Shown here: positions 1,723 through 19,559 of the stretch, piece by piece
How the letters are laid out: every line of letters begins with the position of its first letter
Numbering within the stretch: position 1 is the stretch's first letter
Origin: a virus
Virus record (IMG/VR): IMGVR_UViG_3300042544_002482
Span: 29,593 to 93,592 of that record
Strand: one strand, 5' to 3'
DNA length: 64,000 nucleotides
The notes under the pieces: model-generated
Databases searched by the model: none
What the model was told of the DNA's origin: nothing
Seen by the model: only the letters and a program-made list of their open reading frames with translations
Position numbers and translations under genes: made by a program

Positions 1723-2416
1723 ATATAAAATATAAGTCTTGTTTTAAATCATTGGTTTTATATAAAGGTACCCCCGAATTTAAAATCGATATACCTATTA
1801 TTAATCCCTCACCTCTACCTAATGGTTTGTTATTAAATTTAACATCATTATTGTTTATTTCTTTTTTTAAACAATTAAAAATTTTAAAAAAGTCATTCAA
1901 CTTTTCATCTCTACTAATAACGAAAAATCTTTCACCAATTAATTTAGCATCGCTAATTTTTAAATTGTTTTTTTTACAATGATTTTCAATATGATCAAAA
2001 TAATCATCTTTAATGATGTTCTTAAATTCTTGATATGTTAAAGGGGTTTCTAACCAATCTTCAGTATAATAAATCCCGGGGTTAAATTTTGCTTCACAGA
2101 AGTTATCAATATTTAATGTGATATCAGAATCAACATATAATATCGTCTCATATTTTTTTAAAGCAATTTCACAAATCAATAATTTATCCGTATAAGATTT
2201 GTCTACTTCAGTATACGGGACAATAATAACATTTAAGTCCTTAAACTCTTCTGGACTGTCAGTTAAAACAAGAATATCTACTGGGTAAGATTTATAGGTC
2301 TTAATATTTTTAATCGCCAAATCAATATAATAATTGTCTTCTTCTTTTTCTATTATACCGTTTTTAACTAATGGAGATTTAAATACAAATAAACAAATAG
2401 CTTTATTCATAATCAA
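1715..2416 (-). CDS. putative GT-A glycosyltransferase
   Basis: VLTDSPEEF, KL, YVDSD (DxD), GEG motifs; paralog of 19538..20272. Confidence 0.55.
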   Translation of the reverse strand: MIMNKAICLFVFKSPLVKNGIIEKEEDNYYIDLAIKNIKTYKSYPVDILVLTDSPEEFKDLNVIIVPYTEVDKSYTDKLLICEIALKKYETILYVDSDITLNIDNFCEAKFNPGIYYTEDWLETPLTYQEFKNIIKDDYFDHIENHCKKNNLKISDAKLIGERFFVISRDEKLNDFFKIFNCLKKEINNNDVKFNNKPLGRGEGLIIGISILNSGVPLYKTNDLKQDLYFIYE

Positions 2417-2984
2417 TTTTATGGTTTTGTATTAATGTTAAGCTTTGCCCAACCAAAACATCTCTTCGCCCATCTGTAACTGGTTTTATAAAATGTGGGT
2501 GTGTCAATCCACCTGGAAAGATAATAATATCACCCAATTCTAAATTATAAGAAATGTCTTGTCTTGGAAAACAAAGTTCACCACCTTTAAAATTATTATT
2601 AAGTAAGCCAACAAATGTTAAACCACTAAAATCCCAATGAACATTCTTTTCTGAAAAAATTGTATTGTCTCTATAATAATGTAATAAAAACATATCCCTC
2701 CATTTTGTTTTAACAAAATCTTTTATATTTTTTATTGTTTCGTGAGACGCGTTTAATCCAATACCATTTTCAATATCATAAATTTTTAGATAGTCGTCTA
2801 AAAGCGGATATTCAATATTATTGAACCAAAAATCATTAATTTTATAAAATAAACTCATATCAATTTTATCTACATCAATCCTATCAATACCACCAATATT
2901 ATCACGAACTAATAATAATTCATCAATAATAGATTTTGGTATTATAGATTTAAAAACGAAAATATCTGAATCTATTTTTATCAT
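2403..2984 (-). CDS. 2OG-Fe(II) oxygenase (prolyl/lysyl-hydroxylase-like)
   Basis: HWD...GGEL.F...GDIIIFPG..THPH...V..G.R: HxD...H...R facial triad and 2OG-binding Arg. Confidence 0.85.
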   Translation of the reverse strand: MIKIDSDIFVFKSIIPKSIIDELLLVRDNIGGIDRIDVDKIDMSLFYKINDFWFNNIEYPLLDDYLKIYDIENGIGLNASHETIKNIKDFVKTKWRDMFLLHYYRDNTIFSEKNVHWDFSGLTFVGLLNNNFKGGELCFPRQDISYNLELGDIIIFPGGLTHPHFIKPVTDGRRDVLVGQSLTLIQNHKIDYE

Positions 2985-3695
2985 TTATATTTCAATATTA
3001 AAATTAATTACACATCTATGGGTTTTACCATAGAATGGTTTAACTGAATGTATAATATCAGCCGGCCACATCATTAACATACCTTTTTTAGGTCTTATAA
3101 AGTGAGACATTCCTCTGATATGAAACGTAAAAACACCACTGTATGGATGATCTGCGATTGGCTCACCATCTGATAAATAATATCCGCCAACAAAACTTAA
3201 AGGTGCTGATTCATAAATAGACCACCTACAATGGTTGTGTTGATTATGTCCTCTTCCAGAAGTTGGCTCATAATATTGTATCCAACTTTCTGTCACCTTT
3301 GGGTTGTTGTTATGTTTAAAATTTAATAAATTTAAAAAATCAATAAAACCATCTGTACATCGTTTCTTAATTAGTTTAACACATTCTTCTTCTCTATCTA
3401 AAAACTCATTTGTGGGCACAAGAAAACGACTACCTATTGGGTTGAATTCTGTCGGTTCAACCCATTTATCATGTTTACCATAATTTATTTCATATGTGCT
3501 TTGTCTATCCTGATCATATTGTTCAGGTAATTCTTGCCCCATTAATTTTTGTTCGGGTGTTAACTCATTAAACCCTAAATTATAAACCAAATCATGTAAA
3601 TCATGATCATCAAATTGTTTCATGTATACTGGTATGGGGGCTAAAAGATATAGATTGTCTTGACCGCTTGGCCAAAGTGGATTGTGAAAATACAT
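2985..3695 (-). CDS. putative 2OG-Fe(II) oxygenase (HxH type, phage-associated)
   Basis: ESW..Y, HNQHNH, GGYYL, PKKG.LMMWP..I.HSV.P, R..INFN. Confidence 0.75.
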   Translation of the reverse strand: MYFHNPLWPSGQDNLYLLAPIPVYMKQFDDHDLHDLVYNLGFNELTPEQKLMGQELPEQYDQDRQSTYEINYGKHDKWVEPTEFNPIGSRFLVPTNEFLDREEECVKLIKKRCTDGFIDFLNLLNFKHNNNPKVTESWIQYYEPTSGRGHNQHNHCRWSIYESAPLSFVGGYYLSDGEPIADHPYSGVFTFHIRGMSHFIRPKKGMLMMWPADIIHSVKPFYGKTHRCVINFNIEI

Positions 3696-4888
3696 TAGCT
3701 TAATTTTAAAATATTATATGTTATTGGGAATATATCTTTAAATTTTTGATCCCTAGATTCATCTAGTAAATTATTTATTTTAATAAATGAATTCCAGTCC
3801 TGTTCTGTCGATTCTTTACTATTAAGGTATTGCGTAATATTTGTAAATTGTTCTTTAATTTCCGGGCTTTTTACCGGTAAACTATTATAAGATTCATTAA
3901 CATATTTTTCAATATCTATTTTTAAGTTTTCTGGAATATTGTTTATGCAATAGTATTTTGGTTGTGATAAAAAGTTACAATGTATTCGAATATTATTCTC
4001 AATTGCAAATTCAGCGACTTCGTTAAAATCTAGGACATTCATAATTGAAACTGTGTAACAAATATGAAACTTGAAATTTTTTAAATCTTTTGTTTTATCT
4101 AACCATAATAAAATATTATTTTTTACTTCATTCCAGTTTGCACCATATCTTAAATAATTAAATTTATCACCAACACCGTCTATACTAAATGAAATATCAG
4201 AAAGCTCAAAGTTTTTTAATATTTCAAAATATTCATCTTTAAAAATAGTACCATTAGTGTTAAAATGAACATACTTATTTTTAGCAATACCAGTATATAC
4301 ACATTTTTCTAAAATGGACCATTGTTTTTTCATTAACATTGGTTCACCACCATATAGATCAAGTATTTTTACTGATGATATATTTTTTTCAATTTCATCC
4401 CAAACCATACTGTCGTCAGCAAATGGTAAAGAACAAGATTTTGTAATCTGATTTAGTTTTTCATCTGAAATATCCGGGTTTAAAACTGATTTATGTTCTT
4501 TTTTCCAGTTTGAAGATGAATATACGTTACATATTCTACAAGTTAGATTACAAATATTCCCCATGTTTAATTCTAAAAAATGTATTTCACTTTCTAGTAG
4601 GGTTAAATGTGCAACTCTATTATTATCTCTAATTCTTTTACTTTCAACTCCCGAATCTTCTAAATTCCAACAACCATTACACTCTGGTGATTTTATTCCA
4701 TTTTTAAAATCTTCTTTAAGTTTTTTTAATGTAGGTGATTGTAGTGCGTCTTGGAAGGTTGTGTTTAGAACACTCATAACATTACCATCATCATCTTTAA
4801 GATATGTTTCACTAGCAATACAACATGGTGTAAATTTTCCATCCGTTGTTACCCTCAACCCATTATTTATGTTTGCACATTTTATCAT
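3695..4888 (-). CDS. radical SAM protein with N-terminal twitch/SPASM-like domain
   Basis: N-terminal C...PCC...CxxCW; CNLTCRIC; GGEP; NTNG; SIDG; C-terminal D..R...F...FP. Confidence 0.9.
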   Translation of the reverse strand: MIKCANINNGLRVTTDGKFTPCCIASETYLKDDDGNVMSVLNTTFQDALQSPTLKKLKEDFKNGIKSPECNGCWNLEDSGVESKRIRDNNRVAHLTLLESEIHFLELNMGNICNLTCRICNVYSSSNWKKEHKSVLNPDISDEKLNQITKSCSLPFADDSMVWDEIEKNISSVKILDLYGGEPMLMKKQWSILEKCVYTGIAKNKYVHFNTNGTIFKDEYFEILKNFELSDISFSIDGVGDKFNYLRYGANWNEVKNNILLWLDKTKDLKNFKFHICYTVSIMNVLDFNEVAEFAIENNIRIHCNFLSQPKYYCINNIPENLKIDIEKYVNESYNSLPVKSPEIKEQFTNITQYLNSKESTEQDWNSFIKINNLLDESRDQKFKDIFPITYNILKLS

Positions 4889-8458: not shown

Positions 8459-9799
8459 CTATAATGTTTTAAACCAATTTATAAATTCAATTGGCATATA
8501 TTCTTCTATTGGTTTATTTCTTCTTATTGAATATTGATTAACGAATTTTTTAAGGTCGTTTATTTTATTTTCAGTACTATCACTATCCTCATAGGATATG
8601 TCAACTTGTCTCAAGTATAAAACCAATCTGTCAAAATGATTTACTTCCCATTCTTCCATCCATGGTTTATTACTAATAACCGATGATTCAATATTATCTG
8701 CCAATAAGTTTTTTATGTTTTGGTCAATCATATTAATACTTTGAAACGAAGGGAACCTTAAAATATTTACACTCATTGAGAATGTATGGATATTATTTAA
8801 TTCTTTTCTCCATTTAACAATTTCATCTAAAAACAAGTCTACAGTCCAAATACTTAAGACACTAATTGTCATCATAATATTAAGTCTTCTAACCTTTTTG
8901 GATTTTTCGACTTTGAACATATTGTCTTTCCATAAATCCCACTTAAATCCATCTCTAACGAATTCCTGGTGTTTACCGAAACATTCGGCTGAGGTATAGA
9001 TGTCCAACGACTTAAACTTATCAGAAGAATTTAGTAACCTATAAAGTCTCTCATCGTCCATAATGAGATTACTATTAACCGCAAAGTCAAACTTATCATT
9101 ATTACAAACATCCAACAGTTTCCAAAATGAAGGACTTCTTGATGGTTCACCACCAGATACTCTTAGTTCCATTAACTCTCCCCTTATTTCTTCGAACCAA
9201 TTGAAAAAGTTATTTACGTAGATGTTGTCTTCATTTTTATTACCGAACGGCATGGCAATTGAACCGTCACTTTTATATGTTAGTCCACCATTAGTTTTCA
9301 TTCCCTCATATTCACCATTGTTCAAAATATCTTTGGACCAGGTTGAACTGAACTCTGAATTACAGTAGCTACAAGCCAAATTACAAAGATTATCGAAACA
9401 GATTTCAATCGTTTTAGGTATCACATTCGCGTCCCACGGCATTGTTTTAATTTTTTCAATGTCTTCCTTGGTATACCTAGATGTTTGGTACATTCTATCA
9501 CTAAAAATATTTGGGTTGTCTTTTGCCGCATCCTCCACTCTCCAACAATATGAACATTCTTTTGGTCTAACACCTTCTAACATCTCCTTTCTTCTTTCTT
9601 TCTTGAAGTTGGTATTATGTAGGGCGGATGGATTACTATTTAACTCATCTAATGGAATTGGATGTGCTAGTGGGTGGTGACAAGATGCGGTTTTACCGTT
9701 ACCTAACCATATAGATACGTTATACCATTTCGCAGCACAAAAAGAGGACGAAAAATCGTCCATCAATTTTTTAATTTCGGTATAGGGTATATTAGACAT
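8459..9799 (-). CDS. radical SAM protein, CHHP-twitch subfamily
   Basis: FCAAKW...SCHHP...CSYCW; CNLACSYC; SGGEP. Confidence 0.9.
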   Translation of the reverse strand: MSNIPYTEIKKLMDDFSSSFCAAKWYNVSIWLGNGKTASCHHPLAHPIPLDELNSNPSALHNTNFKKERRKEMLEGVRPKECSYCWRVEDAAKDNPNIFSDRMYQTSRYTKEDIEKIKTMPWDANVIPKTIEICFDNLCNLACSYCNSEFSSTWSKDILNNGEYEGMKTNGGLTYKSDGSIAMPFGNKNEDNIYVNNFFNWFEEIRGELMELRVSGGEPSRSPSFWKLLDVCNNDKFDFAVNSNLIMDDERLYRLLNSSDKFKSLDIYTSAECFGKHQEFVRDGFKWDLWKDNMFKVEKSKKVRRLNIMMTISVLSIWTVDLFLDEIVKWRKELNNIHTFSMSVNILRFPSFQSINMIDQNIKNLLADNIESSVISNKPWMEEWEVNHFDRLVLYLRQVDISYEDSDSTENKINDLKKFVNQYSIRRNKPIEEYMPIEFINWFKTL

Positions 9800-10440
9800 T
9801 AAATGATTTTTTGTTTTGGTGCGACATTATTAAACATATCGATTGATTTATTAACATATTCTGGGTCTTCGATTAGAATTCCGTGATTTCCATTCCCACT
9901 ATTGTCGAATGTTTTAAACTTAGAATTTTCTTCGAAATTCATATTAATATACATATTTTTATCCGTATAATCAACTAACGTGTTATATATAATTATGTTA
10001 TTAATGTCACCATTAAACCATTTATCGTTTTCACCGTTAAATGGATATAGGGACCCAATTAAGAGTCTTTTTTCTGAATAATCAATAATATCACCTTTAA
10101 CTTTAGAATCCATTAAAACGTCATTAAAATACAAACCAATCGATTCTGATACCGTTACCTTTATATTCATTCTTTGTTTAATGTCATCAATTATAAATCT
10201 AACATCATTATATCTATTTCCGGTTGTGTACCAAACAAATTTCACTATGTTAGGTAGTTCTAAAAATAAACCCATTGGGTGACCATCTTTAGAAATGATT
10301 GTTGCTTCGTTATCTACAAAATCAAATAACCTAAAATCAGCTATAATTGTAAAGTTATTTTCAATTGAAGAATAATCTTTAACGTTAGTGTTGTTCTTAG
10401 TTTTATTTGGTATGTAGTATGATGTTTTATTGAATATCAT
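9799..10440 (-). CDS. stand-alone LamG/concanavalin-A-like domain protein
   Basis: beta-rich; FTI..F, LYFND, LLIG, FNGDINNIIIYN, FDNSGNGNHG are typical LamG-jellyroll signatures. Confidence 0.7.
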   Translation of the reverse strand: MIFNKTSYYIPNKTKNNTNVKDYSSIENNFTIIADFRLFDFVDNEATIISKDGHPMGLFLELPNIVKFVWYTTGNRYNDVRFIIDDIKQRMNIKVTVSESIGLYFNDVLMDSKVKGDIIDYSEKRLLIGSLYPFNGENDKWFNGDINNIIIYNTLVDYTDKNMYINMNFEENSKFKTFDNSGNGNHGILIEDPEYVNKSIDMFNNVAPKQKII

Positions 10441-11809
10441 GGTAAAATTTTTCTAATTCAGGGAATGTTTTAACAAAATTGGTTCCTCTTCTTCTATCGT
10501 GTTCGTCAACAAAGATTTTAAAATCTTTTTTGTTTGTTTTTAACCAATCGTCCTCTTCTTTTACTAGCATCCAATCGTGAATTCTATTTAACTTATTAAT
10601 TTCTATATCCGTAAAACCGTACCCATCCATTCCAACTCTTATCTGTTCATAAAAATCCATTAGTTGTGCTTGTTCTTTAACTTCTTTTACCCAATCATCA
10701 CCTAAAATCTTTACGGTTTGATATTCTGGGTGTCTCAAATATGATGAGTCTAAAATGATAGATGATCCGTAATATCTATATGGGTTATGGTATTCTTCTT
10801 TTAGTTTATAAACATTTTTAATTAAGTCCTTATATCTTGGTACCGATAGTGCGTTATATGTGGACATTATAATGATTGTCAATGTTGGTATTTCTTTTAA
10901 TAGAATATTGATTCGATCCCATACTAAATTAAAAGTCATCCCGTTTCTGATATATTCTGCTTGATTACCCCACGTATCGACACTAGTGAATACGATTACC
11001 TCGTTAACTCTATCTTCATCTATTATTCTTTTTATTTTGTTTAAAAATTCATTGAATAACTTATCAGGTGCACCTAAATTGGTGTTTATTGAAAAATTCA
11101 AATTTTTGTTTGGGTTGGGGTTATCGATAATGTAATCCAACACTTTAAACGTATCTTTTGAAAGTAGCGGTTCTCCTCCAGTAATTCTAAACGTGTGTAA
11201 ATCTCGATATAAATCCGGCCACCATTTCCAAAATGATTCAACATAAGGGTTAAATTCATTATGTGGGATTGGCATCTTATTCTCACTTTTTAACCATTCA
11301 AGATTACCGAACTCATTCGATGTTGGGTACTTCCCGTGTTGTAATATCTCCTGCATCCACTGAGATGAGTAAGATGGACCACAATAAGAACATTTGTAGT
11401 TACAATGATTACTAAATGCCACCTCAACATATTTTGGGTTATAATTGTTATTCCAATTAAGGTTTTTTATTTCATCTATAAATGGTTTAGACCATGGTTC
11501 AGACGATTTGTATGTCCTATCTGAAAAGGCGTTTGATGAATCCTCAATGTTCCAACAATATGAACATTCTTTGGGTTTACCACCTTCTAACATTTCTTTC
11601 CTCTGTTCTTTTTTAAATTGTGTATTGTGTAAAGCCGAGGGATTATTTTTTAATTCTTCTAAGGGTATGAAATGTGGTGACGGGTGGTGACACGAATGTG
11701 TTTGACCCATTTGTAGGTGTAAAGTTACTTGTGTCCATTTTGCTAAACAAAATCCACACCCCACAGAATTTAATTCTTTTCTTGTCTTCTCAAAAATTTC
11801 GTTTAACAT
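10427..11809 (-). CDS. radical SAM protein, CHHP-twitch subfamily
   Basis: CGFCLAKW...SCHHP...CSYCW; CNYKCSYC; TGGEP; D.RRGTNF..TFPE. Confidence 0.92.
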   Translation of the reverse strand: MLNEIFEKTRKELNSVGCGFCLAKWTQVTLHLQMGQTHSCHHPSPHFIPLEELKNNPSALHNTQFKKEQRKEMLEGGKPKECSYCWNIEDSSNAFSDRTYKSSEPWSKPFIDEIKNLNWNNNYNPKYVEVAFSNHCNYKCSYCGPSYSSQWMQEILQHGKYPTSNEFGNLEWLKSENKMPIPHNEFNPYVESFWKWWPDLYRDLHTFRITGGEPLLSKDTFKVLDYIIDNPNPNKNLNFSINTNLGAPDKLFNEFLNKIKRIIDEDRVNEVIVFTSVDTWGNQAEYIRNGMTFNLVWDRINILLKEIPTLTIIIMSTYNALSVPRYKDLIKNVYKLKEEYHNPYRYYGSSIILDSSYLRHPEYQTVKILGDDWVKEVKEQAQLMDFYEQIRVGMDGYGFTDIEINKLNRIHDWMLVKEEDDWLKTNKKDFKIFVDEHDRRRGTNFVKTFPELEKFYHDIQ

Positions 11810-11812
11810 TTT

Positions 11813-12394
11813 TTATATTTTATGTATGAAGTTACAGTTATTTGTTAAGTCATAACTTTTATTATGAATGAATTTTTCAAATGTGTGTTCAGATATGAGT
11901 GCCCCATCTTTTTTAATTGATAGGTATGAAATGGTACCATCAAAATAATTTAAATTGTAATCATTCTTTGGGAAATTACCAGAACCAAAGATTATGTGAG
12001 GTTTATTATCCTCAATTAAATTAGTTTTTAAAGTAATATCAAATATCAATTCATTGTTGATGGTTACTTTAATATCGTTACCATCTTTTGTTATTTCTAA
12101 TCTATATTTTTTATTTGGTTCCCATCCATAATTCTTAGTTAGGTATTTTGTTTCATCTCCCTCTTCATTGAAAATTACTAACAATCCACTTATTTCAATA
12201 TCAATACCGAAGTACGTTGGTAACTTGGCAAATAACGTCATTTTATTTGTTACCACATCTGATAATTGAAATTCAATTAAGAAATTAAAGTTTCCCCTAT
12301 AGTCAAAGATTTTATTACTTGGGTAATCAATAAAATTATCAGCAAGAAAATCTGGCCACATTACCCATATGTTTTCTTTATTTATTTTTAACAT
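11813..12394 (-). CDS. stand-alone LamG-like domain protein
   Basis: beta-rich; F.F.IEF, IIFG, YFDGTI, KSYDLTNN; positional and sequence paralog of 9799..10440. Confidence 0.6.
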   Translation of the reverse strand: MLKINKENIWVMWPDFLADNFIDYPSNKIFDYRGNFNFLIEFQLSDVVTNKMTLFAKLPTYFGIDIEISGLLVIFNEEGDETKYLTKNYGWEPNKKYRLEITKDGNDIKVTINNELIFDITLKTNLIEDNKPHIIFGSGNFPKNDYNLNYFDGTISYLSIKKDGALISEHTFEKFIHNKSYDLTNNCNFIHKI

Positions 12395-13760
12395 CGTAAT
12401 AAAAGTTTTTTAGTTCTGGAAAAGTTAGAATGAAATTTGTACCTCTTCTTTCATCATATTCATCAACAAACGATACAAAGTCTTTTCTATTTTGTTCCAC
12501 ATCAAATGTTTCATCTTCAGCAATTGAGTAATCGTAGATTCTTTTTATTTTTTGAACTTCAACATCGGAAAACCCTACGTTATCGTGATTAAATTCTGGT
12601 GTTGCATAATAGAATGCTTTTTTGGCTGATTCTAAAATAAGTTCTTTGTGTTCTCTTTCTAATATTTTTACCGATAGATGTTTTGGCCATCTTAAATACG
12701 ATGTGTCTAATTGTATTGCCGATATCCAATATCTAACATTGTTTGCATGTTTTTTCTTCATATCGAATATTTGTTCAATAACATCCCCATATGTGAAAAC
12801 TGATAAGGCGTTAAATGTTGCCATTACGTTAATTGTTACTTTAGGTAATTTTGTTAGTATCTTATCTATGTTATTCCAAAATTTTTCATAATCTAAACCA
12901 AACCTAACATATTCCGCTTGTTTATCTTTAGCCTCTACCGATGTGAAAATGATTAATTCTTTTATCTTATTATTATTACACAAATCCTCGGCAATCTCAA
13001 TAAACTTATCTATTAAATTATCGGGTACTCCTAAATTACTATTAATGGCTAAAGATAGGTTGGGGTTTTGTTCCCAATTTGTTTGTATGTACTCTAAAAC
13101 TTTAAATGTATCTTTCGCCAATAGAGGTTCACCACCTGTGATTCTAAACGTATGTAAGTCTTTATAAAGATTTGGCCACCATTCCCAAAAGGCTTCCAAA
13201 TATGGATTATGTTCGGAATGTTTATATGGCATTTCTTTTTTTAACTCCAATTCCTCTATGTTGTTGTAGTTGGTTGAAGTTTTATATCCGCCATACTTTT
13301 CAATTTCTTCCACCCATTTTGAAGAGTACTGTGGTCCACAATATGCACATTTAAAGTTACATGTGTTAGAAAAAGAAACCTCAACATATCTTGGATTAAA
13401 ATTTTCTCTCCAGTTTAATTCTTTTATTTCGTTGAAGTGTGGCATAGACCATTGTTCAGACGATTTAAAAACACGATCCGAAAAATTACTACTATTATCC
13501 TCGATATTCCAACAGTACCCACATTCTTTGGGTTTATTACCCTCCAACATTTCTTTTCTCTGTCTTTTTTTATACAGAGTATTGTGTAGTGCAGATGGGT
13601 CCCTTTTTATCTCAGATATCGGTATCTTATGTTGAGCGGGGTGGTGACATGAGTGTGTTAAACCAATACCTAAATGCATAGTTACTTGTGTCCATTTTGC
13701 TAAACAAAATCCACAACCAACCCCATCTAATAAATCCTTCGTATCTTTAAAATTATTCAT
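12378..13760 (-). CDS. radical SAM protein, CHHP-twitch subfamily
   Basis: CGFCLAKW...SCHHP...CGYCW; CNFKCAYC; TGGEP; close paralog of 10427..11809. Confidence 0.92.
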   Translation of the reverse strand: MNNFKDTKDLLDGVGCGFCLAKWTQVTMHLGIGLTHSCHHPAQHKIPISEIKRDPSALHNTLYKKRQRKEMLEGNKPKECGYCWNIEDNSSNFSDRVFKSSEQWSMPHFNEIKELNWRENFNPRYVEVSFSNTCNFKCAYCGPQYSSKWVEEIEKYGGYKTSTNYNNIEELELKKEMPYKHSEHNPYLEAFWEWWPNLYKDLHTFRITGGEPLLAKDTFKVLEYIQTNWEQNPNLSLAINSNLGVPDNLIDKFIEIAEDLCNNNKIKELIIFTSVEAKDKQAEYVRFGLDYEKFWNNIDKILTKLPKVTINVMATFNALSVFTYGDVIEQIFDMKKKHANNVRYWISAIQLDTSYLRWPKHLSVKILEREHKELILESAKKAFYYATPEFNHDNVGFSDVEVQKIKRIYDYSIAEDETFDVEQNRKDFVSFVDEYDERRGTNFILTFPELKNFYYDVKNK

Positions 13761-14954
13761 TTAAAACATTATTTCAATCCAAGGACAAATTTCTTTATAG
13801 TCTGTGTTTCTCATACTATCTAATTTTTCCAAGTATTCTTTTAGGTCGTCTTTATTTTGGTTACCTCTTATTAATGAGGAGTCTATTTTTAAATGATTAA
13901 TAAAATCATTCATAATTGTCACAATTTTACTATAGTATTCTTTTTTACTTAGATTTTCATTAATGTAATCAATGACTTTGTTTTTAAATTCAATCGGCGC
14001 AGCACCTACCGCAAACCAATAAGGTGTCGTTGCCCAGTGAATATGAATCAAATCTTTTTTTGTATAATTGTTTTCTAAAACATAATCAATAAAATCAAAG
14101 GTATGAAATATATTCATCATTGTTATGGTATATTCAATCTCAGCATTTACATTTGGATTTGTTAAGTTAAAATCTGAGATTTTTTTCATGTTATCAAAAA
14201 ACTTATCAGATATGAATCCAGTTCTTTGAAACTCACCAACCTTTCCATAACCATCACAAGAACAACCCACAATAACATTCTTAAATTTTTTTAATGATTC
14301 AAGAATGTCTATATTTTTATATTTTAAATTGGATAAGTTTGTGTTTATATAAACATTTATATTTTTTGATTGGTCTTCACTAAACCTATCAATTAATTTG
14401 AACACATCTTCATTAATGAAAGGTTCTCCACCTGCAAAGTAAAGGTGTTCGATATGGTTTAAATCTTCGTCTGAGAATTTATTAACTGGGTCGTCACCTA
14501 TTTTATATGATTTACTAAAAAGTTTACTCACACCTTCACCATATATTTCAACTAAATCATCATACCAAGAAGATGAAAGTGTTGGTCCACACATTCTACA
14601 TTTGAAATTACATAAATTAGAAAACCTAACATCTAAGTATTGTAATTTATTTACCGAATAATCCTCATTGAATAGTGTTGGGTCTTCGAATTTATCTTTC
14701 CAGTTATTATTCCACACATCTTTCAGTGTGTTACCCTTTTTAAAACAAATATCACATGGTTTAGGTGTTATACCATTATCCATGTCTTCTCTTAACTTTT
14801 TGAATTGTTTACTGTTCAATATGCCCATTACATTATCATGGTCGGACCATTTTAATTCCTCTTCAAAATTATCAGCAATACAACAGGGTCTTACCAGTCC
14901 ATCTGGGTTAACATATAATGAGGTATATGCTAATATACATTGGGTGTCTTTCAT
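13761..14954 (-). CDS. radical SAM protein with N-terminal twitch domain
   Basis: C...PDG.VRPCC...CDIC; CNFKCRMC; AGGEP; NTN; SCDG. Confidence 0.9.
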   Translation of the reverse strand: MKDTQCILAYTSLYVNPDGLVRPCCIADNFEEELKWSDHDNVMGILNSKQFKKLREDMDNGITPKPCDICFKKGNTLKDVWNNNWKDKFEDPTLFNEDYSVNKLQYLDVRFSNLCNFKCRMCGPTLSSSWYDDLVEIYGEGVSKLFSKSYKIGDDPVNKFSDEDLNHIEHLYFAGGEPFINEDVFKLIDRFSEDQSKNINVYINTNLSNLKYKNIDILESLKKFKNVIVGCSCDGYGKVGEFQRTGFISDKFFDNMKKISDFNLTNPNVNAEIEYTITMMNIFHTFDFIDYVLENNYTKKDLIHIHWATTPYWFAVGAAPIEFKNKVIDYINENLSKKEYYSKIVTIMNDFINHLKIDSSLIRGNQNKDDLKEYLEKLDSMRNTDYKEICPWIEIMF

Positions 14955-16348
14955 TTCATTTTACAATTTATAATTTTAGTGTTAGGGTATGTTGAGTTGT
15001 CAACATTATCCACGTCTAACACATTTAATATTTGTGATAAACCATCATTTTTATAATCAATCTTTCTTTGTTGCATTTCAGTCACAAATCGTTTTTCATT
15101 TCTTGCTGTCGTTTCACCTTTAGCCCATCTTCCATGTATAAACCCCTCATCTACGTGTGGTAAACAATAAAAAGAACCTTCACGTCTGAATGGGATTACG
15201 TTTTCGATAATTTCAATATCCTCATTTGTGATTTGAATGTTTTGTTTAATAATATTTTCATTATTTAAATCAAGACTTAAAACTACGTTATCAACATTTG
15301 TTGGTATGTCGTTAATGTCTTTAAAAAATCTATCATAAATCTTAAAATCGGATATCTTACCTTTATATCTTGTGTTTACTTGTGGACAAAATCCCAATAT
15401 AAATGGTTTTATTGCATCATGTGTTTTTAAATCGTTTTTTACTAGGAACGGTATATTTTGTTTTATTCCGTTAATGTGACAAATTAACTCGTCATTAATA
15501 TAAAGATATACATTTTTTTCTTCACTATTATAACTAAATGTAACTTGTGTCCACATACCCTCAAATCTCTTAGCCCAATTATAGTGGTTTCGATTGTCTC
15601 TATCGAAAACCTGAGCGGTAACGGCTCTAGAGTTGTTGAAGGATAAACCCCAGGTCCAACTACCGTCCTTTCTTAATAAAGGGTATTCAATAAAACGTTT
15701 GTTTTCGTCACCAACTAACCAAATCGGAACCTTTTCGTCCTGTTGTTCTGCGTTAAATGTTAATGTTATTGTATGATCATTATGTAAACAAGAACTGATT
15801 TCACGATTTGTTGGTATGAAAATTGCCGATGAGTCACCATCAAAATTAGCAACAATTTTGTTTTTTTCAGTTTTAACTGTTCTTCCAGTTGTCATTTCTT
15901 CAAAATAACATCTCCAGAATAAGTCGTCATCTTCTTGACCCCAATCCCAATACTCATTAGAATAACCATTTATGGTTTTCGCTTGTTCTTTAGTGAATAA
16001 TACAACACCACCGAAGTATTGGTCATAACCTAAACCGTATTGATACTTGGATAACTTAGTTGCTATGTGTATCGGATTATTTTCTGGATATGAATAGTCA
16101 CATTCTTCATGTGGTAACATATCAACATCGTGCCAAGCGATGTAATCACAACCATCATTAAACGCATATTCAGCTGCAATATTTTTCATTGCACCTCTAT
16201 TGAATAATTTATCATCAACCTGATGTCCAACATAAAATTCATGTTCAATACCTTGTTGAGTTAAGTGTTTACTTAGGTGTGGAACCAATCTTTCTAAATG
16301 TTCCTTTCTATTTCTGTATGGTATACATATACCTAATTTATGTCTCAT
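14951..16348 (-). CDS. GT7 (beta-1,4-galactosyltransferase-like) with internal LamG insertion
   Basis: IPYRNR, FNRG, HDVD, YFGGV, NGYSN.YWDWGQEDDD; ~210-aa LamG-like insert; then GT7 C-terminal H...RF...DGLS. Confidence 0.85.
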   Translation of the reverse strand: MRHKLGICIPYRNRKEHLERLVPHLSKHLTQQGIEHEFYVGHQVDDKLFNRGAMKNIAAEYAFNDGCDYIAWHDVDMLPHEECDYSYPENNPIHIATKLSKYQYGLGYDQYFGGVVLFTKEQAKTINGYSNEYWDWGQEDDDLFWRCYFEEMTTGRTVKTEKNKIVANFDGDSSAIFIPTNREISSCLHNDHTITLTFNAEQQDEKVPIWLVGDENKRFIEYPLLRKDGSWTWGLSFNNSRAVTAQVFDRDNRNHYNWAKRFEGMWTQVTFSYNSEEKNVYLYINDELICHINGIKQNIPFLVKNDLKTHDAIKPFILGFCPQVNTRYKGKISDFKIYDRFFKDINDIPTNVDNVVLSLDLNNENIIKQNIQITNEDIEIIENVIPFRREGSFYCLPHVDEGFIHGRWAKGETTARNEKRFVTEMQQRKIDYKNDGLSQILNVLDVDNVDNSTYPNTKIINCKMK

Positions 16349-17769
16349 AATCCCACATTAATTTGCGTTATTTTATTTCTTTTTTCTTTTCCGTGTATGT
16401 GATAGGTTAACGTTGATAAACCATCACCATTTAATAGGTCATCATTAATTGAAACCTCGTTGTGGAATCTTAATTGATTCCATCTAGTTGCCTGATCTTT
16501 CCATTTGTTACCTAAAAACCCATTCTCTTCGTGTGTTAAGGATTTAAATGTAGATTTTCTTCTATGTGGTATTTTTATATTGGTATACTCATCAAAATTA
16601 ACATCCACAATTTCACATTTTTTTATCACACCATCGTTAGTACCTTTTAAATCCACCAATTTATAATTTTCAATAAAATTCGCATCATAATATGTTACCA
16701 ATGACGATGAAGATTTATAACTTCCAAAATTTTTAGTTAATAACTCCGTTTCGTTATGTGATATGTCCTTTATTTCATCATCATTAAGAATGTCATCGTA
16801 ATATGCAAAACTATCTATAGTACCTCTAAAAAAATTAGGTATACCCACTCTATCTGGTTTACCTACACCTAAGTAGAACTTCTTTTCTTTGTTGTAGAAT
16901 AATAATTTTTTAAATGTTGGGGTTTCTCCTATGAAATAACCATCTTGGTATACTTTTATTTTATTATCAATTTTATCTAAAACAACTACTATATTTGTTT
17001 TATAGTTTGGTTTAATAATTGAGTTTATGTATAAAGCGTTATGTTCGGAGTCGAATGTGCAAAAGTTATATCTAGAAAATGAATTATAACATATTGCAAA
17101 GTCCCAACCAGGAATACTAAATGTGGTAAATTCATCGGATTCTTTTTCGTGATTTAAAGATAACTTATCAGGTCTAAATGATATAAAAAAAGTTGCATTA
17201 TTATTTACATCAATAATATTATTACACTCCACATACGCATCTATTCCATTAAACTTTAATGTCTTTCCTTTCCTACCATAATTCTTTAGACGTAAAGTAT
17301 CTAATTCAATTCCTTTTCGTTCACACCTTAATAATAAATCATCATCCTCATAACCCCAACCCCAATATTTGTTAGAATATCCATCAATCTTAATAAAATC
17401 CTGCACCGTAAACATAGTAACCCCACCAAAATATTGGTCGAACACTTCTCTATTTTTTTCATCTTTTTGTAAGATGAAGTCTGTTGCTAAATGTAATGGA
17501 ATATCTGAATATGAATAATCAACATCTACTGGTAACATATCCACATCATGAAACACAACATAATCACATTTTAATTTTTTCGCCTCTACGAACCCAATGT
17601 TTAGGGTCATACCTCGATTAAATTGTTTTGCGTTATCTTGATTAACCACAATTATTTCGTAGTTAATCTTACGTAGTTTCAAATAAATTTTAATACACGT
17701 TAAAAACCTATTTAAATGTTCTAGTCTATTTCGATATGGAACAATTATCCCTAATTTATGGTTATCCAT
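16345..17769 (-). CDS. GT7 (beta-1,4-galactosyltransferase-like) with internal LamG insertion
   Basis: VPYRNR, FNRG..LN.G, FHDVD, YFGGV, GYSN.YWGWGYEDDD; LamG insert (LKFNG...FRGTID); C-terminal H...RF...DGLSTLTY. Confidence 0.88.
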   Translation of the reverse strand: MDNHKLGIIVPYRNRLEHLNRFLTCIKIYLKLRKINYEIIVVNQDNAKQFNRGMTLNIGFVEAKKLKCDYVVFHDVDMLPVDVDYSYSDIPLHLATDFILQKDEKNREVFDQYFGGVTMFTVQDFIKIDGYSNKYWGWGYEDDDLLLRCERKGIELDTLRLKNYGRKGKTLKFNGIDAYVECNNIIDVNNNATFFISFRPDKLSLNHEKESDEFTTFSIPGWDFAICYNSFSRYNFCTFDSEHNALYINSIIKPNYKTNIVVVLDKIDNKIKVYQDGYFIGETPTFKKLLFYNKEKKFYLGVGKPDRVGIPNFFRGTIDSFAYYDDILNDDEIKDISHNETELLTKNFGSYKSSSSLVTYYDANFIENYKLVDLKGTNDGVIKKCEIVDVNFDEYTNIKIPHRRKSTFKSLTHEENGFLGNKWKDQATRWNQLRFHNEVSINDDLLNGDGLSTLTYHIHGKEKRNKITQINVGL

Positions 17770-17968
17770 TTATAGTTGGGTCTTTTGGTTTGGTTGTATT
17801 GTGCCATTCCGATAGATAATATTGAATTCTATCACTCCATTCCTGTTTATCAACCTCTTCAAACCAAATGGTTAAAGCATCTAACGAATTAGCAATTTTT
17901 TCTAATGCCTTTACTTTTCTTGTTTCTAAGATTTGTTGTTCTTGTTCTTTTTCTACTTTTGTACTCAT
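17762..17968 (-). CDS. small hypothetical protein within the modification operon
   Basis: 68 aa, overlaps both neighbours (translational coupling). Confidence 0.6.
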   Translation of the reverse strand: MSTKVEKEQEQQILETRKVKALEKIANSLDALTIWFEEVDKQEWSDRIQYYLSEWHNTTKPKDPTING

Positions 17969-18816
17969 ATTGATATTATTTTATTGTATAGTTTATTCCA
18001 TTGTTTGTATTGATTAAATTTTGGTTCTGTTAAATCTAAACCAAACATAAAATCTGGATTTGTTAAATCAATTTTAAATCTACATCTTCTTAGTTTATCA
18101 TACATTAACCTATATTCATCCGAATAAGCGTAAGGTTGTTTTATATTTGCAACATCTTTAATCCTATCGATTGATGTTCTATCCCATTTAAAATGGTGCA
18201 CTTGTACGCTATTATGTTTTGATATTAGTGGGTGATTCCACCCTTGCCATCTCCATGTTGTATGTCCATCTAATTTGGCGTAATGTTGCCCTGACGTTAA
18301 TTCAACGTGACCCTTTTTAATGCATATTTTATTTGGGTTGGCACCACTTAAAGGGTAACGGAAAAATCCCGCATTTGGGAATTGTTCCCATATTAGTTTG
18401 TCTTTTTTAATATCGACGAATTCACCGTCAATCCCAATTCTATCTATAAATCCACCTCTAACTAATACGTAACCATATTCATTACAACTTTTAATTATTG
18501 ATGGTAAATGGTCGTTTTCATATAAATGAAATTCATCAATATCCGCCACTACCCACCAATCGTTGGGGGATTTGTTTGTTACGAAGTTGTATAATTTTGT
18601 AACCTGTTCCCAATCAAAAATTCTATCCTTATGAACTTTAACAATTTTAACATTATCAAAATCACTAATAACCTCTTTTACCTCATTAACTAATAATGGG
18701 AATTCTTGGGTTTCATAAACAACAATATTAATTTCATCAACGTGAGATTGGTAATGATTAATAAAGTGTGGGAGTAATTCTATTCCGTGACCTATAACTG
18801 TAACTAATCTAATCAT
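17965..18816 (-). CDS. GT2/GT92-like glycosyltransferase
   Basis: LLPHFINHY, WWVVADIDEF, K..., G.H, VHHFKW pattern of GT2_4/GT92-like proteins. Confidence 0.7.
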   Translation of the reverse strand: MIRLVTVIGHGIELLPHFINHYQSHVDEINIVVYETQEFPLLVNEVKEVISDFDNVKIVKVHKDRIFDWEQVTKLYNFVTNKSPNDWWVVADIDEFHLYENDHLPSIIKSCNEYGYVLVRGGFIDRIGIDGEFVDIKKDKLIWEQFPNAGFFRYPLSGANPNKICIKKGHVELTSGQHYAKLDGHTTWRWQGWNHPLISKHNSVQVHHFKWDRTSIDRIKDVANIKQPYAYSDEYRLMYDKLRRCRFKIDLTNPDFMFGLDLTEPKFNQYKQWNKLYNKIISI

Positions 18817-19559
18817 TTTTTCCTGTTAATAATGGTAATACCGCTTGATGACGGCTTGTCCACTAATATACGGAAATTATGTAAATTAATCAAGTTCCAG
18901 GTAGGATTTTCTTGTAATTCTTTAATTAATTTGGATGGTCCATCAAATCTATGAAAGTCCTTTCGTTGGTCCTCAGATACGATTAAAGTTCTTTCATATT
19001 CAGAATCGGTATCGTGTATAATGATTATACCATTTTCAGATAATATCTGTGAATATAAATCAAAATCTTGTTTTACGCCTTCATATGAGTGGTCTCCATC
19101 AATAAACAACAAATCTATTTTTATATCCTGTAAAACAAAGAAATTATAATATGCTTCTTCAGATGTGGATTTAATAAAACGAGGATAGAAATTTTTACGG
19201 TAGAATGAGTCTTCGTTTTCTAGGTCATTAGGACCCCCTACACCGTTACAAGCATCCACGACATATGTTGACCCTATGTCACCCCAATTAAGGTCAGAAT
19301 CACCCTCAAATATCCCTTGTTTATGGAGATCTAATCTAGCCTGTGTTAATATCCTCGGTATGAAACCTCCACCCGACCCAATACAAACACAAGTCTTAAA
19401 TCTCATATGTTGTATAATAGAATACACAACAAGACCGTCTCCCATATGTAAATCTGTTGCACCATGTGTCCACCTATATGGTACAGGTTGGTCATTATTG
19501 TTAGTAATGTTTTTTCTAATATATTCTTCATTTGTTATCATTTCATCCAATTTGGCCAT
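18813..19559 (-). CDS. class I SAM-dependent methyltransferase (Methyltransf_24-like, possibly sugar O-methyltransferase)
   Basis: IGSGGG, IDLLFIDGDHSYEG, GIIIIHDT. Confidence 0.85.
   Translation of the reverse strand: MAKLDEMITNEEYIRKNITNNNDQPVPYRWTHGATDLHMGDGLVVYSIIQHMRFKTCVCIGSGGGFIPRILTQARLDLHKQGIFEGDSDLNWGDIGSTYVVDACNGVGGPNDLENEDSFYRKNFYPRFIKSTSEEAYYNFFVLQDIKIDLLFIDGDHSYEGVKQDFDLYSQILSENGIIIIHDTDSEYERTLIVSEDQRKDFHRFDGPSKLIKELQENPTWNLINLHNFRILVDKPSSSGITIINRKK

What the first reader, a model, noticed from the sequence alone, without database searches (positions are those of the whole stretch)
8459..13760. Alternating rSAM-LamG-rSAM-LamG-rSAM: a duplicated enzyme plus lectin-adaptor unit
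Seen: only the three CHHP-type radical SAM genes are interleaved with stand-alone LamG genes, and each LamG start overlaps the 3' end of the preceding radical SAM gene. 12378..13760 and 10427..11809 share a 36-nt identical stretch (13680-13715 = 11723-11758) and long identical peptides, while their LamG partners are strongly diverged. Inference: a two-gene unit was duplicated, and the LamG acts as an exchangeable substrate-recognition subunit, comparable to the RRE/PqqD partner of RiPP radical SAM enzymes but possibly for glycans.
Basis: partly seen in the sequence, partly recalled or inferred. Interest (0 to 1): 0.8.

Follow-up and report, generated by a model that had tools for sequence, protein, structure and literature searches.

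The report
Phage radical-SAM enzyme with lectin-fold partner
In an uncultured large phage, one class of iron-sulfur "radical SAM" enzyme is almost always followed by a small, fast-evolving lectin-fold (LamG) gene; this window has two such pairs, and the LamG most likely helps the enzyme find its sugar-bearing target, although nobody has tested that.

Summary
Genes, 14- and 17-nt overlaps, the 36-nt identity and the divergence figures (F-G 53%, L1-L2 23.5% identity) are all as described. The small proteins are LamG folds (AF2 pLDDT 89.7; Foldseek prob 1.0 to neurexin, perlecan and agrin LG domains).

The enzyme-plus-LamG unit is real and common. All 45 informative IMG/VR loci found through the LamG have a G/F-class N-twitch radical SAM gene directly upstream. 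Conversely, 71 of 78 loci found through the enzyme have the LamG directly downstream. The two gene trees agree, and the F-L1 unit changes position between phages.

The stand-alone LamG is homologous to the LamG domain inside the operon's two GT7 glycosyltransferases. It evolves about twice as fast as its enzyme but is under purifying selection.

- The two units are old paralogues, not a fresh duplication.
- The 36-mer encodes an invariant cluster motif and is near-identical in unrelated contigs.
- Gene overlap is not special in this operon.
- No rSAM-LamG fusion was found.
- Bdellovibrionota homologues pair with glycosyltransferases, not LamG.

The adaptor role is therefore plausible but inferred. 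This scan has already found the surrounding operon type in other genomes.

The parts
12378..13760 (-). Radical SAM enzyme G. G/F class of the N-terminal-twitch family, SCHHP motif, CX3CX2C at C134/C138/C141.
   Evidence: NF033640 330.5 bits against a cutoff of 170. AF2 pLDDT 96.0. Invariant C19, C38, C80, C83 plus the CX3CX2C motif in 57 homologues.
11813..12394 (-). Stand-alone LamG protein L2 (193 aa), partner of enzyme G. Its start overlaps the end of G by 17 nt.
   Evidence: AF2 pLDDT 89.7. Foldseek PDB hits to neurexin, perlecan, agrin and PAPP-A LG domains at E about 1e-7, prob 1.0. 71 homologue clusters, nearly all full-length members about 193 aa.
10427..11809 (-). Radical SAM enzyme F. 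An old paralogue of G (53% identity) in the same G/F class.
   Evidence: NF033640 340.4 bits. The F clade is distinct and shared with L002, L031, L036 and L037, and is sister to the sole units of L027/L028.
9799..10440 (-). Stand-alone LamG protein L1 (213 aa), partner of enzyme F. Its start overlaps the end of F by 14 nt.
   Evidence: BLASTP to L2 gives 23.5% identity, E 8e-9. It aligns in family A2 with the shared terminal F..K..D.SGNGN motif. The L1 clade mirrors the F clade.
8459..9799 (-). Radical SAM enzyme E. A different class of the same family. It has SCHHP but no LamG partner of its own.
   Evidence: NF033640 268.2 bits. It forms a separate clade with 100 support. In more distant phages the gene after the LamG is not E-class.
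13680..13715 (-). 36-nt stretch identical to 11723-11758. Encodes CGFCLAKWTQVT, the first auxiliary-cluster Cys motif.
   Evidence: Exact identity. The homologous 36-mers in other contigs differ by only 1-8 nt.
11723..11758 (-). Second copy of the 36-nt stretch, in enzyme F.
14951..16348 (-). GT7-type glycosyltransferase carrying a LamG domain in the same chain (T1). Part of the invariant four-gene core.
   Evidence: Pfam Glyco_transf_7N/7C plus Laminin_G_3. Precedes the G/F enzyme in nearly all related loci.
16345..17769 (-). Second GT7-type glycosyltransferase with a LamG domain (T2). The LamG region is residues 189-378.
   Evidence: Pfam. hhalign of the stand-alone LamG family against the GT7-LamG family gives 96.4% probability, E 1.3e-9.
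13761..14954 (-). Radical SAM enzyme H. Another class of the family, lying between T1 and G. Among the first 46 loci it is found at this position only in the window and L002; two loci of the later scan show the same GT7L-H-G order.
   Evidence: NF033640 291.3 bits. Locus architectures.

Best explanation
The window belongs to an uncultured large tailed phage. Next to its fibre genes it carries a tightly packed sugar-building and sugar-tailoring operon.

Within this operon the conserved core is two GT7 glycosyltransferases that each contain a LamG domain. They are followed by a G/F-class N-terminal-twitch radical SAM enzyme, and then by a small soluble stand-alone LamG protein.

I read the enzyme and the LamG gene behind it as one functional two-gene module, co-translated through their overlapping stop and start. 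In this reading the LamG is a non-catalytic binding subunit. It gives the radical SAM enzyme in trans what the GT7 enzymes carry in cis: a module that holds the shared, phage-specific acceptor, which could be a glycan or a glycosylated virion protein.

This window carries two such modules of old, separate lineages (G-L2 and F-L1). Two different radical steps would therefore each have their own LamG.

Shown: the fold, the homology to the GT7-embedded LamG, the conserved pairing, the co-inheritance, the faster but constrained evolution of the LamG, and the carbohydrate context.

Inferred: physical contact, substrate binding, the nature of the target, and the reaction.
For: - Fold: L2 is a LamG/LNS-type sandwich.
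- Family: the profile of the stand-alone LamGs finds only 123 representatives in 1.84 billion proteins. Its remote hits are Laminin_G_3 proteins.
- Homology to the cis LamG of the GT7 enzymes: hhalign 96.4%, E 1.3e-9, including the unusual terminal motif.
- Pairing, LamG to enzyme: every informative locus of the 46 found through the LamG has a G/F enzyme directly upstream.
- Pairing, enzyme to LamG: 71 of 78 loci found through the enzyme have the LamG directly downstream. The gene after the LamG varies.
- Co-inheritance: the F clade plus L027/L028 in the enzyme tree (99) mirrors the L1 clade plus L027/L028 in the LamG tree (95). The F-L1 unit lies after G-L2 here and in L002, but before it in L031 and L036-L038.
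- Mantel correlation of LamG distances with the upstream enzyme is r 0.82-0.85, against 0.49-0.61 with E and 0.44-0.55 with T1. The partial r is 0.67 against 0.31.
- Junction: median 17-nt overlap at enzyme-to-LamG junctions.
- Selection: pN 0.11-0.13 against pS about 0.7 for L1 and L2 between the window and L002. Mean p-distance is LamG 0.64 against enzyme 0.34.
- Carbohydrate context. Bdellovibrionota homologues overlap GT2/GT1 genes.
Against: - No binding or contact was tested. A complex prediction could not be run with these tools.
- No enzyme-LamG fusion exists in the searched collections. Only tandem LamG-LamG forms were found.
- Homologues of the enzyme at 40-47% identity in Bdellovibrionota, and at 40% in Ralstonia phage RsoM2USA, work without this LamG. 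The LamG is therefore not intrinsic to the enzyme class.
- Linkage alone raises distance correlations between neighbouring genes.
- The ConA-like fold also hosts enzymes.
- The target molecule is unknown.
- The radical SAM model matches only generic cores in the PDB.
Confidence: 0.5

Rival explanations
1. The LamG protein is itself the acceptor or carrier. The GT7 and radical SAM enzymes modify it, as maturases act on a neighbouring precursor, and it later decorates the virion.
For: It is adjacent to modifying enzymes. It has a conserved C-terminal tail with a Cys in most members (NCNF). LamG domains are common in phage structural proteins. It evolves fast.
Against: The tail Cys is Gly in the L1 clade and Leu in L022. 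The same domain type is built into the GT7 enzymes, which points to an enzyme accessory. There is no leader/core pattern. The conserved parts are the termini and one loop, not a variable core next to a conserved leader.
Confidence: 0.13
2. The LamG-fold protein is an enzyme in its own right, a ConA-like fold hydrolase, lyase or isomerase, that processes the product of the preceding radical SAM enzyme.
For: Invariant polar residues occur in the closer family (H133, H170, K179, D182 and several Asn). Some remote profile hits overlap the 3-keto-disaccharide hydrolase family of the same clan. There is strict one-to-one pairing with one enzyme class.
Against: Across the wider family only M1, P14, K179, D182, N186 and N188 stay invariant. 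Both His are lost. The best structural matches are binding domains. The homologous domain inside the GT7 enzymes is unlikely to be a second catalytic site.
Confidence: 0.15
3. The LamG is a stabilising or assembly partner of the radical SAM enzyme (solubility, cluster loading, or docking into a multi-enzyme complex) and has no part in substrate choice.
For: It has overlapping stop and start codons, which are compatible with translational coupling to the enzyme. It is co-inherited with the enzyme.
Against: A pure chaperone of a well-conserved enzyme (mean p-distance 0.34) would not be expected to diverge to 0.64. Bdellovibrionota homologues do without it.
Confidence: 0.12
4. The pairing is only gene-order inheritance. 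The LamG is a fibre-associated or host-binding lectin that happens to sit inside the operon.
For: The operon lies beside the fibre genes. LamG domains occur in many phage fibres.
Against: The position is fixed directly behind one enzyme class in 71 of 78 and 45 of 45 loci, while genes on its other side vary. The unit moves as a pair. The correlation with the upstream enzyme exceeds that with the equally adjacent downstream gene.
Confidence: 0.08

Closest known systems
NCBIfam NF033640, N_Twi_rSAM (twitch domain-containing radical SAM protein)
   Same: All eight radical SAM genes of the operon score far above the family cutoff. They have four N-terminal Cys for an auxiliary cluster and then the CX3CX2C motif.
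   Different: The family is catalogued without a known reaction. No PDB sequence relative was found, and no paper on its function. The G/F class described here is a sub-lineage with a dedicated LamG partner, which the family definition does not mention.
RRE/PqqD recognition elements of RiPP radical SAM maturases (for example PqqD with PqqE)
   Same: A small non-catalytic protein, encoded next to a SPASM/twitch radical SAM enzyme and thought to present the substrate. It can be separate or fused elsewhere in the pathway.
   Different: The fold is a LamG beta-sandwich, not a winged helix. No precursor peptide was identified. The context is glycosyltransferases rather than peptide maturation. No fused enzyme-LamG form was found.
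Radical SAM and glycosyltransferase cassettes in the host recognition cluster of pelagimyophages (Zaragoza-Solas et al. 2020, PMC7029224), and the T4-like environmental genome with 12 radical SAM genes (Nishimura et al. 2017, PMC5332604)
   Same: Large aquatic myophages with glycosyltransferases and radical SAM gene cassettes beside the tail-fibre genes.
   Different: Those papers only list the genes. The first reads the glycosyltransferases as host O-chain modification. Neither describes the enzyme-LamG pair or the shared LamG module.
Laminin_G_3 / LNS-type LamG domains (neurexin, perlecan, agrin) and LamG domains of phage structural proteins
   Same: The same jelly-roll fold: Foldseek prob 1.0, TM 0.53-0.74. 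Remote profile hits are Laminin_G_3 proteins.
   Different: L1 and L2 do not reach the Pfam threshold. They are cytoplasmic-type stand-alone proteins of 190-265 aa with the D.(S/T)GN(C/G)N motif at the C-terminal end, and they are encoded inside an enzyme operon.
Beta-1,4-galactosyltransferase with its specifier protein alpha-lactalbumin (GT7). Own knowledge; an analogy only.
   Same: A separate protein changes which acceptor an enzyme takes. The same operon here holds GT7-type enzymes.
   Different: Unrelated folds and unrelated enzymes. Not tested here.

Membership tests
NF033640 N_Twi_rSAM | Whole-protein HMM score above the curated cutoff (170 bits) | tested here: met
   E 268.2, F 340.4, G 330.5 bits. 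H, D and C also score 291-381 bits.
NF033640 N_Twi_rSAM | Radical SAM CX3CX2C cluster motif preceded by an N-terminal Cys-rich twitch-like region | tested here: met
   Invariant C134, C138, C141 and C19, C38, C80, C83 in 57 aligned homologues. The SPASM Pfam model hits the N-terminus of the paralogues C, D and H. Cluster binding itself was not tested.
LamG / ConA-like lectin fold (Pfam Laminin_G_3, PF13385) | Pfam HMM above the gathering score | tested here: not met
   No Laminin_G_3 hit for L1 or L2. L2 has only a sub-threshold DUF6250 hit.
LamG / ConA-like lectin fold (Pfam Laminin_G_3, PF13385) | Two-sheet jelly-roll fold matching solved LG/LNS domains | tested here: met
   L2 model pLDDT 89.7. 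Foldseek prob 1.0, E 1e-7 to 1e-6 to neurexin 1c4r, perlecan 3sh4, agrin 1pz8 and PAPP-A. L1 joins by sequence. The family profile reaches Laminin_G_3 proteins.
LamG / ConA-like lectin fold (Pfam Laminin_G_3, PF13385) | Binds a carbohydrate or protein ligand, often through a rim Ca2+ site | not testable with these tools
RRE / PqqD-type recognition element | Winged-helix PqqD-like fold | tested here: not met
   L2 is an all-beta sandwich. No PqqD Pfam hit on any gene of the block.
RRE / PqqD-type recognition element | Binds the leader of a ribosomal precursor peptide encoded in the cluster | tested here: inconclusive
   No evident precursor was found in 8459-17769. A conserved 68-aa helical ORF lies at 17762-17968, and a Cys-rich peptide fusion was reported by another note outside the window. 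Neither was linked to these enzymes.
Conserved two-gene module (operational definition: G/F-class enzyme plus LamG) | Adjacent in the same order in independent genomes, found from either partner | tested here: met
   45 of 45 informative loci from the LamG side. 71 of 78 from the enzyme side.
Conserved two-gene module (operational definition: G/F-class enzyme plus LamG) | The two proteins contact each other | not testable with these tools
   Only single chains taken unchanged from the DNA can be folded here, so no complex prediction or experiment was possible.

The most novel reading that the evidence does not exclude
The LamG proteins are trans-acting specificity subunits that dock on G/F-class twitch radical SAM enzymes and present a glycan or glycoprotein acceptor. 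This would be the first lectin-fold counterpart of the RRE for radical SAM chemistry on carbohydrates. The same module would be used in cis by the operon's GT7 enzymes, so that swapping LamGs retargets a whole phage glycan-tailoring pathway.
Probability: 0.35. Interest if true: 0.75.

Novelty: new variant of a known kind. Interest (0 to 1): 0.55.

Why it matters
The N-terminal-twitch radical SAM family is abundant in aquatic phages: at least 595 matching stretches for this one class in IMG/VR. It has no known reaction.

A dedicated, co-inherited LamG partner gives a concrete handle:
- The pair can be co-expressed.
- The LamG can be used as bait to fish for the unknown acceptor.
- Cognate and swapped pairs give a built-in specificity test.

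If the LamG is a recognition subunit, the idea of separate substrate-presenting proteins would extend from peptide-modifying radical SAM enzymes to glycan-modifying ones. It would also help explain how phages diversify a surface sugar coat beside their host-recognition genes.

If the LamG is not a recognition subunit, the result is still a well-defined conserved gene pair of unknown role.

Tried and rejected
- Recent tandem duplication or gene conversion as the source of the 36-nt identity: rejected. The 36-mer codes for the invariant CGFCLAKWTQVT motif. Genes coding for this motif in unrelated contigs differ by as little as 1 nt. F and G are only 53% identical overall.
- Overlap of start and stop as a specific sign of pairing: weakened. 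Most junctions of the operon overlap.
- Natural enzyme-LamG fusions: searched twice. The 'longer' search of the 5.8-billion set gave only two tandem LamG-LamG proteins. In the full profile search of 1.84 billion representatives, none of the ten longer hits that I scanned with Pfam carries a radical SAM domain.
- LamG next to the enzyme in cellular genomes: found only on four MAG contigs with LamG directly behind the enzyme (L049, L050, L051, L107); those with enough flank carry the phage-type cassette. It was not found on Bdellovibrionota chromosomes. The iterated HMM used had absorbed GT7-LamG sequences, so I confirmed the ~250-aa class separately by hhalign.
- Cultured model phage: Ralstonia phage RsoM2USA has a 40%-identical enzyme. 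Its neighbours are neither LamG nor GT7-LamG.
- Function from structure: the G model matches only generic radical SAM cores. Top matches are SkfB Z 14.4, BlsE 13.2, PFL-AE 12.6, MoaA 12.4, viperin 12.4, anSME 11.9 and DesII 11.8. There are no PDB sequence relatives.
- Megablast and tblastn against isolate phages gave nothing for the block or for the LamG and GT7-LamG proteins.
Contexts were taken from the search for related loci instead.
- Literature searches for this family, or for a radical SAM plus LamG pairing, found no description.


Full report
**Setting**

The window is the right-hand 64 kb of a 93.6-kb contig. It has about 30% G+C, and every long ORF is on the minus strand. PHROG matches to tail-fibre and baseplate proteins at 27-41 kb, and to an SbcC-like nuclease, mark it as a large tailed phage. 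No isolate phage is close.

Read in the direction of transcription, the block is:
- a methyltransferase (18813-19559)
- a GT2-like protein (17965-18816)
- a 68-aa ORF (17762-17968)
- two GT7-type glycosyltransferases with a LamG domain (16345-17769 and 14951-16348)
- radical SAM H, then G, L2, F, L1, E
- radical SAM D, C, B, A
- two 2OG-Fe(II) oxygenase-like genes

Just beyond the window start lie an APS kinase, a DUF2061 protein and a GNAT. All the radical SAM genes tested (C, D, E, F, G, H) score far above the cutoff of NCBIfam NF033640, the N-terminal-twitch radical SAM family.

**The observation**

- L2 starts 17 nt before the stop of G.
- L1 starts 14 nt before the stop of F.
- E starts on the last base of the L1 stop.
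- The 36-nt identity is exact.
- F and G are 53% identical, E is 31-33% identical to either, and L1 and L2 are 23.5% identical at E 8e-9.
- Only E, F and G contain SCHHP.

Two points need tempering.

First, nearly all junctions in this operon overlap or abut, and across related loci the median of other junctions is -4. The enzyme-to-LamG overlap is longer (median 17 nt, 45 of 49 overlapping) but not unique in kind.

Second, the 36-mer encodes CGFCLAKWTQVT. This contains eight of the invariant residues of the class, including the first auxiliary-cluster cysteine. In 30 genes of other contigs that code for this motif (or conservative variants allowed by the search pattern), the homologous 36-mer differs by 1 to 8 nt, and by only 1 nt in four of them. 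An invariant peptide plus strong AT codon bias explains it.

**Are the small proteins LamG folds?**

Pfam does not call them. With an alignment of 34 homologues, AlphaFold2 gives a confident all-beta model of L2 (pLDDT 89.7, pTM 0.88).

Foldseek matches LG/LNS domains of neurexin, perlecan, agrin and pikachurin, plus pentraxins and the LG module of PAPP-A. Probability is 1.0, E is 1e-7 to 1e-6, and TM is 0.53-0.72. The viral library gives ConA-like/LamG domains of phage proteins.

A profile of L1, L2 and relatives finds only 123 representatives among 1.84 billion proteins. The distant ones are Laminin_G_3 proteins. The fold assignment is therefore right, for a narrow and divergent subfamily.

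**Is the enzyme-LamG pair a unit?**

Starting from the LamG, 46 IMG/VR loci were recovered at 22-76% identity. In every locus where upstream DNA is present, the gene directly upstream is a G/F-class enzyme. The order methyltransferase, GT2, GT7-LamG, GT7-LamG, enzyme, LamG is kept.

Starting from the enzyme, at least 595 IMG/VR stretches match, and the best 79 loci were inspected. The immediately downstream gene breaks down as follows:
- 54 are recognised by the LamG HMM.
- 3 are recognised by BLAST to L1.
- 13 are recognised by an iterated profile. As a family, these ~250-aa proteins match the L1/L2 family at 98.1% by hhalign.
- 1 further case was missed only through an over-long ORF call.

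That gives 71 of 78. What follows the LamG is E-class only in the closer phages and varies elsewhere. The invariant core is therefore GT7-LamG, GT7-LamG, G/F enzyme, LamG.

**Trees and distances**

In the enzyme tree the F genes of the window, L002, L031, L036 and L037 form a clade. That clade joins the sole enzymes of L027 and L028 (support 99).

In the LamG tree the L1 proteins of the same five contigs form a clade that joins the LamGs of L027 and L028 (support 95).

The F-L1 unit lies behind G-L2 in the window and L002, but in front of it in L031 and L036-L038. It therefore moves as a pair.

Over 31 orthologous units, the LamG distance matrix correlates with other genes as follows:

| Compared with | r |
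|---|---|
| Upstream enzyme | 0.82 |
| Equally adjacent E gene | 0.61 |
| T1 | 0.55 |

The partial correlation is 0.67 with the upstream enzyme, against 0.31 with E. With the paralogous units included, r is 0.85. Shared history inflates all such values, so the contrast between the two flanking genes is the informative part.

**Rate and constraint**

Mean pairwise p-distance is 0.64 for the LamG, 0.34 for its enzyme, 0.46 for E and 0.47 for T1.

Between the window and its nearest relative L002, L1 and L2 have pN 0.11-0.13 against pS about 0.7. Synonymous sites are saturated, so the ratio is only rough. They are nonetheless expressed genes under purifying selection that change about 2.5 times faster than their enzymes.

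Conservation is concentrated in the first 30 residues, an Asn-rich loop (137-150) and the last 25 residues. The middle of the sandwich varies.

**Link to the glycosyltransferases**

The stand-alone LamG family aligns to residues 189-378 of the GT7 proteins at 96.4% probability, E 1.3e-9. The alignment includes the terminal F..K..D.(S/T)GN motif.

The operon thus uses one LamG type four times in this window: twice inside GT7 enzymes and twice as a free protein behind a radical SAM enzyme. Two metagenomic proteins are tandem LamG-LamG fusions.

**What argues against an obligatory partnership**

- No enzyme-LamG fusion was found.
- Homologues of the enzyme at 40-47% identity are common on Bdellovibrionota chromosomes. 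There the LamG is absent, and the overlapping downstream gene is a GT2 or GT1 glycosyltransferase in the three cases checked (L066, L067, L123).
- Ralstonia phage RsoM2USA has a 40%-identical enzyme without LamG or GT7-LamG neighbours.

The LamG therefore belongs to the phage cassette, not to the enzyme class as such. These same data do strengthen the carbohydrate reading of the enzyme.

**Chemistry**

The G model is very confident (pLDDT 96.0). It resembles only generic radical SAM cores:

| PDB match | Z |
|---|---|
| SkfB | 14.4 |
| BlsE | 13.2 |
| PFL-AE | 12.6 |
| MoaA | 12.4 |
| Viperin | 12.4 |
| anSME | 11.9 |
| DesII | 11.8 |

. There is no sequence relative in the PDB. I cannot assign a reaction.

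By analogy with twitch/SPASM enzymes that act on sugars or oxidise substrates (BtrN, anSME; own knowledge), an oxidation or other radical edit of a sugar is the most economical guess.

**Verdict on the interpretation**

Well supported:
- The unit of inheritance is the enzyme plus the LamG behind it.
- The window holds two such units.
- The LamG is the fast-evolving member.

The duplication is old. F-type units with 213-265-aa LamGs and G-type units with about 193-aa LamGs are separate lineages. Each occurs alone in many phages, so the second unit may have come by recombination.

The adaptor role fits the data best, in particular cis use of the same domain in the GT7 enzymes, the conserved termini and variable body, and the overlapping stop and start codons, which are compatible with translational coupling. 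It is nonetheless an inference. A substrate, catalytic or purely stabilising role remains open.

**Literature and earlier notes**

- Zaragoza-Solas et al. 2020 (PMC7029224) describe glycosyltransferases and radical SAM cassettes in the host recognition cluster of pelagimyophages.
- Nishimura et al. 2017 (PMC5332604) mention a T4-like genome with 12 radical SAM genes.
- No paper on a radical SAM plus LamG pair or on NF033640 function was found.

This scan has reported the surrounding operon type in several other genomes, including the statement that its enzymes share one lectin-like module. My hhalign result agrees with that independently.

Noticed in passing
window 17762-17968 (-): A 68-aa ORF fills the only apparent gap of the operon. 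Its ATG overlaps the GT2 stop by 4 nt and its stop overlaps the GT7 start by 8 nt. A homologue with a near-invariant helical core (ERKVKALEKIA..LD.LT.WFEEIDK.EW..R.Q.YL.EF) and a variable acidic tail is present at the same place in about 34 related loci.
   Followed up: partly
window 2403-4888 compared with L002:11076-13561: The window and its nearest relative L002 are mosaic. Radical SAM A has pS 0.19, and the two oxygenase-like genes are 100% identical in protein. The enzyme-LamG part has saturated synonymous divergence (pS about 0.7). This implies a recombination junction inside the operon, between B and A.
   Followed up: partly
L066, L067, L123 and about 70 further loci L052-L126 (genome contigs): The SCHHP-class N-twitch radical SAM enzyme is widespread on chromosomes of Bdellovibrionota (Bdellovibrio, Bacteriovorax, Halobacteriovorax) at 40-47% identity. 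Its overlapping downstream gene is often a GT2 or GT1 glycosyltransferase. This would be a culturable setting for studying the enzyme class.
   Followed up: partly
P0072 (386 aa), P0073 (399 aa): Two metagenomic proteins are tandem fusions of two L2-type LamG domains. The C-terminal copy is 49% identical to L2 and the N-terminal copy 26%.
   Followed up: partly
L048:16752-17186 and 16160-16375 (contig just before the window start): An APS kinase (adenylyl-sulfate kinase) and a DUF2061 membrane-type protein follow the DUF6734 gene, and a GNAT acetyltransferase lies further on. This suggests that the product of the operon may also be sulfated and acetylated.
   Followed up: no
L049 (Flavobacteriaceae MAG, 248-kb contig), L050 and L107 (Pelagibacter-type MAGs), L052 (Anaeromicropila MAG): Contigs binned into bacterial MAGs carry the full phage-type cassette (methyltransferase, GT2, GT7-LamG x2, enzyme, LamG). 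They are more likely phage contigs that were binned with bacteria than bacterial loci.
   Followed up: no
window 13761-14954 (-): Radical SAM H sits between the second GT7 gene and enzyme G. Among the first 46 loci this is seen only in the window and L002; elsewhere G usually follows the GT7 gene directly, though two loci of the later scan also show GT7L-H-G. It looks like a lineage-restricted insertion into the core.
   Followed up: no
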